DNA of 64,000 bases. It comes from Escherichia coli (lineage in GTDB: Bacteria > Pseudomonadota > Gammaproteobacteria > Enterobacterales > Enterobacteriaceae). Each line of letters starts with the position of its first letter. Position 1 is the stretch's first letter. Made by a program: the position numbers. Positions 58,801-64,000 of the stretch are shown here, piece by piece. The stretch lies in NCBI RefSeq assembly GCF_013122565.1, contig NZ_CP053258.1. One strand, 5' to 3'.

Positions 58801-61800
58801 TTGTTTTATCGCGATAAACGGTACGCGTCGCCTTTGCGCTCAAGTATTCGCTGGTGCCAACATAATCCAGCGAGATGTACGAAAGCGGAATCACCTGCTG
58901 CGATTTACTTTTGCTATAGAAAAAGCCGTACTCCCAGTACCCCACCGGAATGGAATAATAGCTACTGACGTTTTCGTACTGTCCAGTAGTACTACGCGTA
59001 CCGGCGAGATAAAACAGATCCCCCATTTTCGCTGGATTAAACAGATAACCCACCGCGGTTGTCTGGTAACGGCCCGTTTCTTCATCGCCCCAATTGTTGT
59101 AACTTGCCCGAACGCTCCAGTTTTTGCCCCGGTGTGTATCAATATGAACGATGCTGTAACCATCCCGTGTTCCCGGTTCAATATTAATTTTCACATCAAC
59201 GTCAGGTACTCGCTGAAGATTTTCCAGCCCCTGTTCAATATCGCGAATATTGAGAATATCGTTACGCTGAAAAGGTAACATCCATTCACTGATATCATTA
59301 CCTTCCACAATCGTTTTTTCTATCTTCCCGGCATTAACCTGGAAACGTAGCTTGCCTTTAGAAATATCCTGCGAAGGGATACTAATTCGCGTTGTGATAT
59401 ATCCGGCATTAATATAATAATCCTGCAAGGCAGCAGCAATTTTTTGCACACCAGCACTACCGACACAACGTCCGGCAATCGCTTTTTGCACTTCAGAAAT
59501 AAACTGACCATCCAGAAAGTTATCTTCCAGTTCAATCCGATTAATGATAAAGCAATTCTTTTCCTGCGGTAGATCACTCAGAGTAAACGCATTACGTTGT
59601 GCATTTGAGTAAACATCTTTTTTTTCTAATTTATGCGCGCGTAACGTGCTTTCATCTGCATTTTTTTGCTGCTTGATCAAATTATCAATACTGTCTTTCG
59701 CTGCAACCTGAAAACAACAAAGAATGAGCAGCAAACCAAAATTAAATCGTAATTGCATTATCTTCTCAAACTAAATAAAGACAGCAGCAACCCCTGCGTG
59801 ACATGACGCATTAATATTAAATGCCACTGCTGTCTTTGGTTACATCTTACATGCCGACAATAGTACCGGTGTTGTCAGTTTCGTTTGCTTCTAACGCTAA
59901 ACCGTAGAAGCCACCGAGAACAGCGTCTTTACCGCTATTCGTAACCTTATTTGCCGATACGCCAGCGACACCATAACTCAGCATATTGAGGTAGTTATAA
60001 ATATTACCGGTGGTTTTAACACCCAGAGAATAATCACCCACAATATTTCCACGGTTATTAATGTCATTCACGGCATTGATCGCGATGGTTTGTCCCAACA
60101 TATTACTGTTGCTGTTGTTGGTAACATACTTCTGCGTATCAATAGTCAGCGCAGTTCCCGCCACAATGTCTTTAAAGTTCTCAACACCGTTCAGGGCATT
60201 AATGGTCAGCGCGTTGTCCGCTGCGATGGCATTACGGTTATACAGCGTGCCTTTCAGAACATTGAAATGCACATCCCCTTTACCGCTGATCCAACCATAG
60301 TTAGTGACGCTGTTATCAACGTTCAGATCTAGGTTTTTGTCAGACGCAATCACGCCCGTGGCGGTATTGTCTTCCAGACGACCATCACTGGCGTTACTCA
60401 ACGACGCCGCATAAACATCGAGATTACCGGCGCTGTAAGTGGTGGCATAGTTGTTGTAGAACATACCAGCCGCACGGATGATGGCATCAGCCCCACTGCT
60501 AAGAAGCGCGCGGGTATTATCCAGCGTTCCCCTGGACAGCAGATTAAGCGGACCATTTTCAGCGATGATGCTGCTGTTATTGTTGTAGACGTTCTGAGCA
60601 GAAAGCGTGACACCTTCTTTACCCACAATGCCACCAACGTTGTCAGTAATACCGAAAACTTCACCGTTATAACGCAGGAAGTTATTCCCGTCGCGGTTTT
60701 CGAGGTTGCCGCCAGCGTTAATAACCAGCTTTTTATTCGCCGCGATCAGCGCAGTGTTGTTGTAAATCGTCGATTTAGCATCGACAGAAACATTCTCACC
60801 GGCAATCAAACCATAGGCGTTGTCTACAATGTTCGCCGTCAGAGTCACGTCGCCCGTTTCAGAGGTCAGCGAGCCCTTAAAACTGTCGTAGTTGCCCGTC
60901 AGTGCCAGCGTGACGTCGTCATAACCACGAATTTCACCGTAGTCGTTGTTCAGATTGCTGCCTTTTACAGACAACACGCCGTTCAACGCATGCAGCTTAC
61001 CGCGGTTGTTACCCACGTTGCCCTTCGAATCGATAATCAGATCGCCTGTCGCTTCGATGGTCGCGTTATTGTTGGCCACGCTATTTGCCGTTAATGCGAC
61101 ATCCCCATAACCCACCATATAGAGATAGTTATACAGGTTGCCTTTGGTTGTCACGTTCAGGTCAACATCACTGACAATGTTGCCACGGTTGTTGATATCG
61201 TTAACCGCGTTAATAACGATATTCTGCCCCACCATATTGCTGTTGGAGTTGTTGGTCACATGGCGATTGGTGTTCATCGTCAGGTCGCCGCCAGCAGAAA
61301 TATCCTTCCAGTTTTCAATACCGTTCAGTGCTGCAATGTCCAACCCCTTTTCAGCCGCAATAGTATTGCGGTTGTACAGGTTGCCATTTTTCACCGTGAC
61401 ATCAACATCACCTTTACCGCTGATCCAGCCGTAGTTGGTAAGGCTATTCACCACTTCCAGTGACAGATTTTTGTCAGATGCAATGAACCCGGTCGCATTG
61501 TTATCGATCATCGTACCGCTGCTGCTGTTTTGCAGCGTGGTCGCGTCGATATCCAGGTTGCCCGCACTCCAGGTGGTAGCGTAGTTGTTGTAATACGTTC
61601 CGCCAACCTGAATAGATGCATCCGCCCCGCTGATGACCAGAGCTCGCGTGTTGTCGAACGTGTTCTGCGCCTGCAGAGTCAGAGGACCATCCTCAGCGAT
61701 AATACGGCTGTTGTTGTTATAGATGTTCTGCCCGGAAAGCTCGATGCCTTCCTTGCCGACCATTCCACCCGTTTGCTGAGGCATGCCGAAGTACTGACCA

Positions 61801-64000
61801 TAAGCATTACCGAAGTTATTGCCATCGCGGTTTTCGATACTGCCGCGCGCATTTATCTTCAGTTTTTTGCTGGCCACGATCAGCGCTGTGTTGTTATTGA
61901 CGCCAGACATCGACTCCATCGTGATGTTCTGCCCCATCATGAAGCCGCCGTGGTTATCCACGGAGTTGGCTAACAGGGAGATATCACCCTCTTCAGAGCT
62001 GATCACGCCAATATTATTGGTCAGGCTGCCGCCAACGGCGACTTCAATACCCTGCTTACCGCTGATCCCCCCGGTATCGTTACGCAGAGAGCTTCCCTTG
62101 ATAATCACTTTGCTGTTGGACAGAATTTTGCCCGCATAGTCGTCGATCGTGCTGTAACTTGACAGGGAGACGTTGCCATTAGACGCAATCTGTCCGCCAT
62201 TGTTATTGATGTTGTTCGCACCAATTTCTACGCCGGTATCTGCAATAATGCCCAGAGAGTCAGAACTGCCGGTATCGGCGGTTTTGGTTGAACCATTATT
62301 TACGCTACCTGCCGCACCAATAACGATATGCCCGGTGGACGAACGGATCAGACCTTTGTTGTTATCCACATTACCGTTACTGATAATGGCGATATCGCCA
62401 GTGGTCTGGATATCACCGCTGTTGTTATTCAACGCGCCTGATTCAAGCCCCACATAACCGCCGCGAATCTGACCATTGCTGTTGTTGAGCGTTCCGGTTT
62501 TCAGCGCCACGAGCCCCGCTTCAATCCCGACAGAACTCCCTTTACCAGAGTTAATCAGCGTGGCGTTATTGGTATCAACCGCCAGCATACCTGCTGCGGC
62601 GAGCTTGCCGTTGGTGTTATCAATCGTGCCACTGTTAACGTAGATATCGCCCATCGTAGAGATGTTACCCGCACGGGTATTCACGATAGTATTCTTGTTG
62701 GTATTAAGCGAGATAGTGCCTACAGATGTCACCGTACCGGTGGTGTTATCCAGAGTACCATTTGTTGTCAGGTTGATCGTGCTTGCAGACTGAATCTGGG
62801 CGTTACTGTTTAACAGGTTACCTTTGGAATCGATGCTGACACCATTAACCCCCCCAGCAATAACGCCGAGGTTGCGAACCCCCACACCTTTCTCGGTGCT
62901 GACCAGACTGATTTTGTTCGCATACATTCCGCCCAGTTTGGCAACATCTACGCTGTAACCGTTACGGGACCCCGTGGCGGATACGCTACCGGTCACCTGG
63001 CCTGCGGCATTAACATAGTTATTGCCAGCAACAACGTTCAGCTCATCGGCAGACACTTTGCCGTTAACTACCACGTTACGGGACAGAATTTCTGTCGGGC
63101 TGGCGTTATCCAGTTTACCGAGCGTAATGGTACCGCCGTTCACGGAGTAACCGGCCAGCTTGTCATCCTGGATATCCGGCGTCCCGGTGGTTAAGGTAAG
63201 TTTACCTGTATTGATTGAACCGCCACCGTTTACAGTAATACCATTCGGGTTGGCAATAATCAGATCCGCTTTATCCCCTGCAACTTCCATCATCCCATTA
63301 ATGGTTGAAGGATTTTTGGAAGTAACCTCATTCAGGATCACCTTCGCCGACCCGGAGGTCAGATTACTGTTTCCCTGAATATTTCCGGCAAGTGAAGTAC
63401 TGGATTCATTAGCGCTGTTATTGAAAACGACACCATTTTTATCAACGTTTAGGTTATCCCAGATATTATGAGATAAACCGCTACCGTTAGGTTTGTTGAT
63501 GTCAACGACTGGCACACCATTGGCGTTATATACCGTTCCATTTTTTATGACTAATCCCGCCGCTTGAGAAGCTACAGGAAAAGACAACATCATAAGTATA
63601 GCAATAGGGGTTAATGCTTTACCCACCGTTGCTTCCTTACTTAAATTTATCATCGCCACTAACGTTTTCCTTATTGATGCTATTCATTTTGGACATGCAG
63701 ATCACTTTTGATGACTCACGGAATATCAGCAAAAATGATTGCGGCAAATCCTATCACCTGGCGCAATAAAAAATCACGAAAAATAAGCTGAAATAAGGAT
63801 TCAAAAAAACAACTAAGAGTTATTGTTTTTTCATCGAACGGCGAAGAACCTAACTTACTAAAACACAATAATTTAAAAGTCCCCCATCCTTGCTCCTTGG
63901 GTGATAAAAAATCCAATTTAGAGGATGTCTGAAATGATATGTAGTTTTCTGTACGACATCATTTCAGACATCCGAATAAAACAACAAAGTTGGTGAGTTA

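What the first reader, a model, noticed from the sequence alone, without database searches (positions are those of the whole stretch)
59900..62200. About 1.1 kb in-frame tandem duplication inside tpsA
Seen in sequence: two consecutive ~370-aa blocks are near-identical in order and content (…ALIVASKKLKINARGSIENRDGNNFG…NAVNDINNRGNIVSDVDLNVTTKGNLYNYLYMV… and …ALIAANKKLVINAGGNLENRDGNNFL…NAVNDINNRGNIVGDYSLGVKTTGNIYNYLNMLSY…); the opposite-strand ORF track shows matching paired shadow ORFs (60061.. and 61138..). Such repeats are recombination-prone and may vary the length of the adhesin shaft between strains.
Basis: seen in the sequence. Interest (0 to 1): 0.4.

Follow-up and report, generated by a model that had tools for sequence, protein, structure and literature searches.

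The report
Old internal duplication in E. coli otpA
The secreted E. coli protein OtpA carries two diverged tandem copies of a 378-residue stretch of its rod; the pair is real, ancient and normally stable, but a few wild strains have merged it back into one copy.

Summary
The gene at 59847-63659 (- strand, 1270 aa) is otpA, the exoprotein of the published OtpAB two-partner secretion system of E. coli O157:H7; otpB lies just downstream. Residues 521-863 and 899-1241 align without a gap at an offset of exactly 378 aa (1134 nt): 59% aa identity, E 1e-134. This diagonal scores ten times higher than any other in a self dot-plot.

The copies are not near-identical. DNA identity is 63%, synonymous sites are saturated, and the longest shared exact run is 17 nt. 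Both copies are under purifying selection (dN/dS about 0.1). Second units from E. coli, Enterobacter and Aeromonas form one clade, so this was one old duplication. Most relatives have a single unit. AlphaFold2 models a continuous beta-helix.

None of 379 complete E. coli genomes with the full gene shows a length change. Three rare draft-assembly alleles (892-893 aa) are clean copy-1/copy-2 chimeras with three different in-register junctions, two at the longest shared DNA runs. "Adhesin" is unproven; OtpA's function is unknown.

This is an ordinary feature of a known gene, so interest is low. In passing: otpAB is linked across genera to a fatty-acid/polyketide-like cluster.

The parts
59847..63659 (-). 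otpA (tpsA) CDS, 1270 aa including the stop codon; GTG start
   Evidence: ORF list and translation. Matches E. coli O157:H7 Sakai ECs_1282 at 97.7% nt over the same 3813 nt. ECs1282-1283 is named otpAB in bioRxiv 10.1101/2020.04.13.038984.
62814..63536 (-). TPS secretion domain (aa 42-282), with the NPNGI motif at aa 137-141 (63237-63251)
   Evidence: Pfam PF05860, E 3.4e-41; TIGR01901, E 7.9e-22. Motif position.
62100..62813 (-). Unique beta-helical segment (aa 283-520) between the TPS domain and the repeat
   Evidence: AF2 model is all-beta with pLDDT mostly above 90. It has no partner on the offset-378 diagonal.
60966..62099 (-). Repeat unit 1 (aa 521-898). The conserved core is aa 521-863 (61071-62099). 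The diverged linker is aa 864-898 (60966-61070).
59850..60965 (-). Repeat unit 2 (aa 899-1270). The core is aa 899-1241 (59937-60965). The C-terminal tail is aa 1242-1270 (59850-59936). The protein ends where a third unit would begin.
61746..61817 (-). Extra-helical insert of unit 1, NFGNAYGQYFGMPQQTGGMVGKEG (aa 615-638). FGMPQQ is invariant in all two-unit proteins and close to the single-unit outgroup motif.
   Evidence: AF2 places a short alpha-helix at aa 613-621. Motif comparison.
60612..60683 (-). Matching insert of unit 2, NFLRYNGEVFGITDNVGGIVGKEG (aa 993-1016), diverged from the ancestral motif
   Evidence: AF2 helix at aa 991-998. Motif comparison.
61825..61837 (-). 13-nt exact run TCGAAAACCGCGA shared with 60691-60703 in unit 2. 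This is the junction of the collapsed allele P0007.
61624..61628 (-). Junction interval of the collapsed allele P0008 (GGGGC, shared with 60490-60494 in unit 2)
61411..61427 (-). Longest exact run shared by the two units, TGGATCAGCGGTAAAGG (also at 60277-60293). The junction of the collapsed allele P0035 lies at or just after it.
60061..60300 (+). Antisense shadow ORF in unit 2 (79 aa), partner of 61138-61434
   Evidence: The ends are 1134 nt apart. It is a by-product of the duplication, not a gene.
61138..61434 (+). Antisense shadow ORF in unit 1 (98 aa)
58139..59758 (-). otpB (tpsB), 539 aa, the outer-membrane transporter partner
   Evidence: Pfam ShlB E 3.8e-69, POTRA_2, POTRA_3. Corresponds to ECs_1283.

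Best explanation
The gene is otpA, the exoprotein of the OtpAB two-partner secretion system of E. coli (O-island 47 type locus). Its C-terminal 750 residues are two tandem copies of one 378-residue beta-helical module, roughly 18 coils of about 21 residues.

The copies come from a single old in-frame duplication of the C-terminal module of an ancestor of about 890 residues. That single-unit form is still the common one in Enterobacterales. Since the duplication the copies have diverged to 59% aa and 63% nt identity, and both remain under purifying selection. Unit 1 keeps the ancestral extra-helical motif (FGMPQQ), and unit 2 has a derived one.

The inferred structural effect is a longer secreted rod, by about 8-9 nm, with a second copy of the decorated module. 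Because the DNA copies are so diverged, the pair is stable in nearly all strains.

Occasionally the two copies recombine in register at their best-conserved short patches (13 nt, about 5 nt, and at or next to the 17-nt run). This deletes exactly 378 codons and leaves a chimeric single unit that is still predicted to fold.

Shown here: the duplication, its age, the selection on both copies, the family distribution, the chimeric alleles and the predicted fold. Inferred: the rod-length change, the recombination pathway, and any functional consequence.
For: - Identity of the gene: TPS domain plus an adjacent ShlB-type TpsB. 100% nt match to E. coli PapRG-04-4 and 97.7% to O157:H7. ECs_1282/1283 are otpAB, on OI-47.
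- The duplication: gapless offset of 378 aa, 59% identity, E 1e-134. The dominant diagonal scores 1054, against 100 or less for all others and 76 or less for shuffles.
- Its age: pS 0.73 between the copies (saturated), third-position identity 42%, longest shared run 17 nt.
- Selection on both copies: dN/dS between the window and O157 alleles is 0.096 for unit 1 and 0.117 for unit 2.
- A single origin: second units of the E. coli, Enterobacter and Aeromonas proteins are monophyletic in 100/100 bootstraps, and first units in 66/100.
- Single unit is the common state: most of the 120 best homologues are 847-935 aa with one unit.
- Structure: the AF2 model of aa 283-1270 has mean pLDDT 94.4. It is a continuous beta-helix through the unit junction, with one short helix and one loop at matching positions in each unit.
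- Collapsed alleles: P0007 and P0008 match the window allele in register 0 up to aa 607-611 or aa 677-678, then in register +378 to the end. DNA identity on the two sides is 95-98% to the window allele and about 99% to the O157 allele.
- These alleles sit in the same syntenic locus in four assemblies from different runs.
- P0035 switches from unit-1-like to unit-2-like at the 17-nt run.
- Chimera P0008 is modelled with pLDDT 95-98 across its junction.
Against: - The collapsed alleles are seen only in short-read draft or metagenome assemblies, on 1-3 contigs each. They occur in 0 of 379 complete genomes. No read-level check was possible.
- The exact duplication endpoints cannot be placed. The 35-aa linker resembles neither the segment before unit 1 nor the C-terminal tail; both comparisons score about zero.
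- First-unit monophyly has only 66% bootstrap support.
- Single-unit proteins P0041, P0043, P0044 and P0045 branch at the base of the unit-2 clade. The route to the two-unit form may therefore be more complex than simple duplication.
- The rod-length figure is an inference from general beta-helix geometry. Model coordinates were not measurable here.
- OtpA's function is unknown, so no functional effect of one versus two units can be claimed.
Confidence: 0.85

Rival explanations
1. There is no true duplication. The resemblance is only the generic ~20-21-residue periodicity and Asn/Gly-rich composition of a TpsA beta-helix.
For: Short-period diagonals (offsets 20, 21, 41) do show raised identity counts. 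The protein is 14.6% Asn and 12.8% Gly.
Against: The offset-378 diagonal scores 1054 over 375 residues without a gap. Every other diagonal scores 100 or less, and shuffles 76 or less. BLASTP with composition adjustment gives E 1e-134.
Confidence: 0.01
2. The duplication is a recent, actively unstable repeat: a contingency-type locus whose copy number commonly differs between strains and tunes protein length.
For: Three independent one-unit chimeric alleles exist. Other family members carry whole-coil indels of 21, 41, 85 and 163 aa.
Against: The copies share only 63% nt identity and no exact run longer than 17 nt. Synonymous sites are saturated. 379 of 381 complete E. coli genomes with the gene match it in one full-length place, and all 59 sampled span 3813 nt. 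No collapsed or expanded allele appears in complete genomes. No homologue with three or more units was found. The two-unit form is shared by three genera with position-specific clades.
Confidence: 0.05
3. The two-unit gene did not arise by duplication followed by slow divergence. It arose by unequal or illegitimate recombination between two already diverged single-unit alleles, for example after horizontal transfer, which joined a unit-1-type and a unit-2-type module.
For: Single-unit proteins P0041, P0043, P0044 and P0045 branch next to the unit-2 clade rather than outside both clades. The locus sits on a mobile island, with a P4-type integrase at 41160-42251, and also occurs on plasmids.
Against: No single-unit protein falls inside the unit-1 clade except forms that still retain part of a second unit. 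Those basal single-unit proteins are about equally distant from both units in the middle of the module, as expected for old outgroups or old collapses. A gapless, exactly in-register join is simpler to explain by duplication.
Confidence: 0.1
4. The 892-893-aa 'collapsed' alleles are assembly artefacts, produced when short-read assemblers merged the two repeat copies.
For: All come from short-read draft or metagenome assemblies. None is in a complete genome.
Against: The longest exact string shared by the two copies in any register is 17 nt. As I understand them, de Bruijn-graph assemblers use k-mers longer than that. One junction has only about 5 nt of shared sequence. The P0008 junction was recovered in a Logan assembly and in an NCBI assembly whose gene sequences differ by at least 1 nt. 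The P0007 junction was recovered in two different runs that also share otpB and GcvT-like gene disruptions. The many short-read assemblies behind the 1460-member full-length cluster do not show such a collapse.
Confidence: 0.05

Closest known systems
OtpA/OtpB two-partner secretion system of E. coli O157:H7 (Choi, Dawson & Bernstein 2007; Choi & Bernstein 2009, as cited in PMC5422565)
   Same: It is the same gene pair. ECs_1282/1283 in Sakai are 3813 nt / 1270 aa and 539 aa, 97.7% nt identical to the window gene, with the same neighbours. The window allele is 100% identical to E. coli PapRG-04-4.
   Different: Nothing differs at the level of the system. The internal 378-aa duplication, its single-unit relatives and the collapsed alleles are not mentioned in the secondary sources I could read. 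The primary papers were not available, so I cannot say whether the duplication was noted there.
FHA/FhaB-type beta-helical TpsA adhesins (Bordetella FhaB, ETEC EtpA, Haemophilus HMW1)
   Same: All share an N-terminal TPS domain, secretion by an Omp85-family TpsB, and a long right-handed beta-helix built from ~20-residue coils. Pfam Fil_haemagg and TIGR01731 repeats hit OtpA. EtpA (8vbb) is the top structural match, though not a significant one (E 0.08).
   Different: OtpA is much shorter than FhaB (my knowledge). It has no demonstrated adhesin activity. According to the account of Choi 2007, it clusters with neither the adhesin nor the haemolysin subgroup. Its repeat is one large 378-aa module present twice, not only an array of short coils.
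CdiA contact-dependent inhibition toxins
   Same: Both are TpsA-type exoproteins with FHA-type repeats. One relative is even labelled 'tRNA nuclease CdiA-2' by a source (P0084).
   Different: OtpA has no VENN motif, no C-terminal toxin domain and no immunity gene. The gene order is tpsA-tpsB followed by acpS. It is not a CdiA.
Surface proteins with near-identical tandem repeats whose number varies between strains (for example streptococcal alpha C/Rib, staphylococcal Bap, stalk repeats of trimeric autotransporters; from my own knowledge)
   Same: Each has an in-frame tandem repeat inside a secreted or surface rod-like protein, and recombination between copies changes protein length by whole units.
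   Different: Those repeats are nearly identical in DNA and vary often. Here the copies are 63% identical, there are only two, the number is fixed in 379/379 complete genomes, and only rare collapses were found.

Membership tests
TpsA exoprotein (type Vb / two-partner secretion) | N-terminal TPS secretion domain with the conserved NPNG motif | tested here: met
   PF05860 at aa 42-282, E 3.4e-41, 142 bits against a cut-off of 33.5. TIGR01901, E 7.9e-22. NPNGI at aa 137-141.
TpsA exoprotein (type Vb / two-partner secretion) | A cognate Omp85-family TpsB transporter with POTRA domains encoded next to it | tested here: met
   58139-59758 (-): ShlB E 3.8e-69, POTRA_2 E 4.3e-16, POTRA_3 E 1e-13.
TpsA exoprotein (type Vb / two-partner secretion) | Beta-helical passenger | tested here: met
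   AF2 models: mean pLDDT 94.4 for aa 283-1270 and 87.9 for the 892-aa form. Both are almost entirely short beta-strands in a regular pattern. Fil_haemagg repeats are detected.
TpsA exoprotein (type Vb / two-partner secretion) | Secretion that depends on the TpsB partner | not testable with these tools
   Reported for OtpAB by Choi et al. 2007 and Choi & Bernstein 2009, as summarised in PMC5422565. Not tested here.
OtpA orthologue | Same sequence, length and locus as ECs_1282 of O157:H7 Sakai | tested here: met
   97.7% nt identity over 3813 nt, with the same flanking genes. ECs1282-1283 are named otpAB.
CdiA toxin | VENN / pre-toxin boundary, a C-terminal toxin domain and a downstream immunity gene | tested here: not met
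   No VENN motif. Pfam finds only TPS and Fil_haemagg. The next gene is tpsB, then acpS.
Copy-number-variable (recombination-prone) tandem repeat | High DNA identity between copies, with long exact runs to support homologous recombination | tested here: not met
   61-66% nt identity; longest exact run 17 nt.
Copy-number-variable (recombination-prone) tandem repeat | Different copy numbers among strains of one species | tested here: inconclusive
   0 of 379 complete E. coli genomes vary. Two E. coli draft-assembly alleles have one chimeric unit. No allele has more than two units.
Tandem intragenic duplication | Adjacent, collinear, in-frame copies far more similar than chance allows | tested here: met
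   Offset exactly 378 codons, 0 gaps, E 1e-134. Diagonal score 1054 against 76 or less in shuffles.

The most novel reading that the evidence does not exclude
The 378-residue module may be the functional C-terminal domain of the OtpA family rather than passive shaft. In this reading its work is tied to the fatty-acid/polyketide-like cluster that always follows otpAB. The E. coli/Enterobacter lineage doubled the module. Unit 1 kept the ancestral FGMPQQ insert and unit 2 evolved a new surface. Natural populations then occasionally switch between two-unit and one-unit forms by in-register recombination, changing what the protein binds or carries.
Probability: 0.1. Interest if true: 0.45.

Novelty: already known. 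Interest (0 to 1): 0.25.

Why it matters
Its importance is modest. OtpAB is a published secretion model system whose biological role is still unknown. The work here gives concrete handles for experiments:
- The protein is an ancestral ~890-aa form plus a second copy of its C-terminal module.
- Both copies are under selection.
- The two copies differ at one conserved extra-helical insert.
- Natural one-unit chimeras exist and could be compared with the two-unit form.

The case also illustrates how beta-helical exoproteins change length by whole-module and whole-coil steps. A repeat pair only 63% identical in DNA can still collapse precisely in register.

The side observation may matter more than the duplication. 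otpAB is linked across genera to a fatty-acid/polyketide-like cluster, not to the neighbouring fimbrial operon. This points to where OtpA's function should be sought.

Tried and rejected
- Tandem Repeats Finder found nothing in the gene because its longest period is 500. The repeat finder saw only two short fragments at spacing 1134.
- BLASTP of the protein against itself returned only the identity hit. I wrote a diagonal scan instead.
- Strict diagnostic columns separating unit 1 from unit 2 gave only 6 sites, too few to classify the single-unit proteins. Sliding-window comparison replaced it.
- I tried to place the duplication endpoints by scoring the linker against the pre-unit segment and against the C-terminal tail. 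Both scored about zero, so the endpoints remain unresolved.
- Foldseek against the PDB gave no significant match. The best was EtpA at E 0.08, and long rods align poorly.
- The primary OtpA papers (10.1128/JB.01751-06, PMC1855909, PMC3107007) are not held. A whole-word search for OtpA/OtpB mostly returned zebrafish papers.
- A literature search for the TPS plus fatty-acid-synthase-like cluster found nothing relevant.
- Considered and rejected: CdiA (no VENN motif, toxin domain or immunity gene); generic periodicity; a recent unstable repeat; assembly artefact for the collapsed alleles. Reasons are given under the rival explanations.
- Of the two complete genomes with partial matches, I examined one. 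It is an IS1 truncation, not a repeat-mediated event. I did not examine the other.
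Full report
**What is at the coordinates.** The region lies inside one long ORF on the minus strand, 59847-63659, 1270 aa.
- Pfam finds a TPS secretion domain at aa 42-282 (E 3.4e-41) and haemagglutinin repeats. NCBIfam finds the NPXG-type N-terminal domain.
- The next gene downstream, 58139-59758, is a ShlB/FhaC-type TpsB with POTRA domains.
- The DNA is 100% identical to E. coli strain PapRG-04-4 and 97.7% identical to O157:H7 genomes.
- In Sakai the two genes are ECs_1282 and ECs_1283. A preprint names these otpAB, citing Choi et al. 2007.
- A review lists OtpA's function as unknown.
- The locus is part of O-island 47.

**Checking the observation.**
- A scan of all self-diagonals of the protein gives one outlier: offset 378 aa, with 262 identities. 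Other offsets give 156 or fewer.
- BLASTP of aa 521-898 against aa 899-1270 gives 204/343 identities (59%), 74% positives, no gaps, E 1e-134.
- With BLOSUM62 scoring, the offset-378 diagonal scores 1054 over aa 515-889. The next best scores 100, and 20 shuffled sequences reach at most 76.
- The feature is thus a long collinear duplicated block, not generic beta-helix periodicity.
- In window coordinates unit 1 is 60966-62099 and unit 2 is 59850-60965.
- The protein ends where a third unit would begin.
They are shadows of the repeat, not genes.

**How similar, and how old.** 'Near-identical' is too strong.
- DNA identity is 61-66% depending on the limits. Codon positions 1, 2 and 3 are 75%, 80% and 42% identical. 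The longest exact shared run is 17 nt, and the next is 13 nt.
- Between the copies the proportion of synonymous differences is 0.73, which is saturated, and dN is 0.31.
- Between the window allele and the O157 allele, dN/dS is 0.096 in unit 1 and 0.117 in unit 2. Both copies are therefore maintained by selection.

**Family picture.** A search of about 5.8 billion proteins with the full protein gave 767 hits at E 1e-30 or better. I located units in the best 120.
- Two-unit proteins occur in E. coli (1270 aa), several Enterobacter species (mostly 1290 aa, period 399) and Aeromonas veronii (1288 aa).
- Most other relatives have one unit and are 847-935 aa. These include Klebsiella, Kosakonia, Pantoea, Mixta, Leclercia, Rahnella and others.
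- In a neighbour-joining tree of units, all second units form one clade (100/100 bootstraps). First units form another (66/100). Both sit apart from most single-unit proteins (100/100).
- This fits one old duplication inherited by the two-unit lineage.
- A search of 1.84 billion cluster representatives with the unit alone found only 13 hits at E 1e-30 or better. None had three units.

**Structure.**
- AlphaFold2 with a 24-sequence alignment models aa 283-1270 at mean pLDDT 94.4. The model is an uninterrupted run of short beta-strands that continues through the unit junction.
- Each unit carries one short alpha-helix (aa 613-621 and 991-998) and one loop (aa 713-724 and 1091-1102) at matching positions.
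- The helix belongs to an insert, NFG..YG.YFGMPQQ.GGM.GKEG. This motif is invariant in unit 1 of all two-unit proteins and recognisable in single-unit relatives. In unit 2 it has changed to NFLR..G..FGIT.NVGG. Divergence after the duplication was therefore asymmetric.
- From general beta-helix geometry (my inference, about 4.8 Å per coil and about 18 coils per unit), one unit adds roughly 8-9 nm.
- Foldseek against the PDB found no significant match. The top hit was the ETEC TpsA EtpA (E 0.08).

**Does copy number vary?**
- 381 of 5426 complete E. coli genomes carry the gene. Of these, 379 match it over at least 80% in a single place. All 59 rows sampled across the ranking, down to 95.5% identity, span exactly 3813 nt.
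- One partial match is an IS1 truncation.
- The protein search, however, returned E. coli proteins of 892 aa, which is exactly 1270 minus 378.
- P0007 matches OtpA in register 0 up to aa 607-611 and in register +378 from there to the end. P0008 does the same with the switch at aa 677-678.
- At the DNA level the flanks are 95-98% identical to the window allele. For P0007 they are about 99% identical to the O157 allele.
- The P0007 junction lies in the 13-nt shared run TCGAAAACCGCGA. The P0008 junction lies in about 5 nt (GGGGC).
- Both alleles sit in the normal locus between the fimbrial operon and otpB. Each was found in two assemblies from different runs.
- A third protein, P0035 (893 aa), comes from a lineage about 77% nt identical. 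It switches from unit-1-like to unit-2-like at or just after the 17-nt run.
- Searching complete genomes with the two collapsed E. coli alleles gave only two-piece matches spanning 3812-3813 nt. The collapsed form is therefore rare.
- An assembly artefact is unlikely. The copies share no exact string longer than 17 nt, and one junction has only about 5 nt of overlap.
- The chimeric 892-aa protein is modelled with pLDDT 95-98 across its junction.

**Mechanism, with its limits.**
- Shown: an old in-frame duplication of the C-terminal module; both copies constrained; a continuous predicted beta-helix; at least three independent, exactly in-register collapses.
- Inferred: the collapses arise by recombination or slipped misalignment between the aligned, diverged copies at their best-conserved patches. 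Only in-frame, in-register products that still fold would persist.
- Which pathway is responsible (RecA-dependent homeologous exchange or RecA-independent slippage) cannot be decided from sequence.
- In the P0007 strains otpB and the GcvT-like gene are split. That collapse therefore sits in a decaying locus. The P0008 locus looks intact.

**Comparison with what is known.**
- The system is OtpAB itself.
- It is not a CdiA: there is no VENN motif, toxin domain or immunity gene.
- It works like other FHA-type beta-helical exoproteins in secretion and fold, but no adhesin activity is documented.
- Unlike classic copy-number-variable surface-protein repeats, its copies are diverged and almost always fixed at two.
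- I could not read the primary OtpA papers, so I cannot say whether the duplication was described there.

**Verdict.** The feature is an ordinary, ancient intragenic duplication in a known gene, with a small bonus of rare natural collapse alleles. Interest is low (0.25).

**Side observation.**
- In all eight lineages examined, otpA-otpB is followed by the same gene set. The lineages are E. coli, the P0035 lineage (its short contig shows the set only as far as the dehydratase), Enterobacter, Pantoea, Klebsiella, Aeromonas, Acinetobacter and Utexia.
- The gene set is acpS, an SDR reductase, a FabZ/ApeI-like dehydratase, an ACP, a GcvT-like protein, a double ketosynthase, a further ketosynthase, a hypothetical protein and an ABC ATPase.
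- The upstream neighbours differ every time.
- This argues that OtpAB belongs with that cluster rather than with the E. coli fimbrial operon, which is the link suggested in the account of Choi 2007.
- I found no paper on this linkage in the searchable library.

Noticed in passing
window 43330-59758 (- strand); loci L002-L006, L009-L014: otpA-otpB is always followed by the same fatty-acid/polyketide-like cluster. Its genes are acpS, an SDR/FabG-like reductase, a FabZ/ApeI-like dehydratase, an ACP, a GcvT-like aminomethyltransferase, an ~850-aa double ketosynthase, a ~405-429-aa ketosynthase, a ~317-aa protein with no Pfam hit and an ABC ATPase. In the window the cluster continues with an FtsX/MacB permease, a LolA-like protein and an acyltransferase. 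This holds in all eight lineages examined: E. coli, the P0035 lineage (a short contig, seen only as far as the dehydratase), Enterobacter, Pantoea, Klebsiella, Aeromonas, Acinetobacter and Utexia. The upstream genes differ in each. This suggests OtpAB works with this cluster, not with the neighbouring fimbrial operon. No paper on it was found.
   Followed up: partly
window 41160-42251 (- strand): A P4-type tyrosine integrase (Arm-DNA-binding, Phage_int_M and Phage_integrase domains) lies at the far end of the cluster. This fits the whole block being a genomic island, OI-47 of O157:H7.
   Followed up: no
L004 5466-7085 and 9135-10294; L005 likewise: In the strains carrying the P0007 collapsed otpA allele, otpB is split into 378 + 152 aa and the GcvT-like gene into 167 + 227 aa. 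The locus appears to be decaying there.
   Followed up: no
L008 (E. coli SCU-316, NZ_CP054371.1) 6001-7308: otpA is truncated by an IS1 insertion, leaving only its last 594 nt. The neighbouring ACP gene carries an internal stop.
   Followed up: yes
proteins P0037-P0040 (1129 aa), P0034 (1205 aa), P0006 (1231 aa): Enterobacter-type two-unit relatives carry other internal deletions of 163, 85, 41 and 21 aa relative to their closest full-length relatives. These sizes are close to whole numbers of ~20.5-residue beta-helix coils. The family seems to change length in whole-coil steps.
   Followed up: partly
window 61746-61817 and 60612-60683 (- strand): The extra-helical insert motif FGMPQQ is invariant in unit 1 of all two-unit proteins and close to the single-unit consensus. 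It is replaced in unit 2. This could mark a functional site retained in only one copy.
   Followed up: partly
L012 1-8049 (Aeromonas veronii): In Aeromonas the otpA homologue lies next to a second, unrelated two-partner system. That system has a 2939-aa TpsA with DUF637, which is CdiA-like, and its own TpsB.
   Followed up: no
plasmid records NZ_CP110986.1 (Enterobacter bugandensis) and NZ_CP019063.1 (Rahnella sikkimica): Homologues of otpA also occur on large plasmids: 66.7% aa identity at full length in Enterobacter, and 47% in a shorter form in Rahnella. The locus is therefore horizontally mobile.
   Followed up: no
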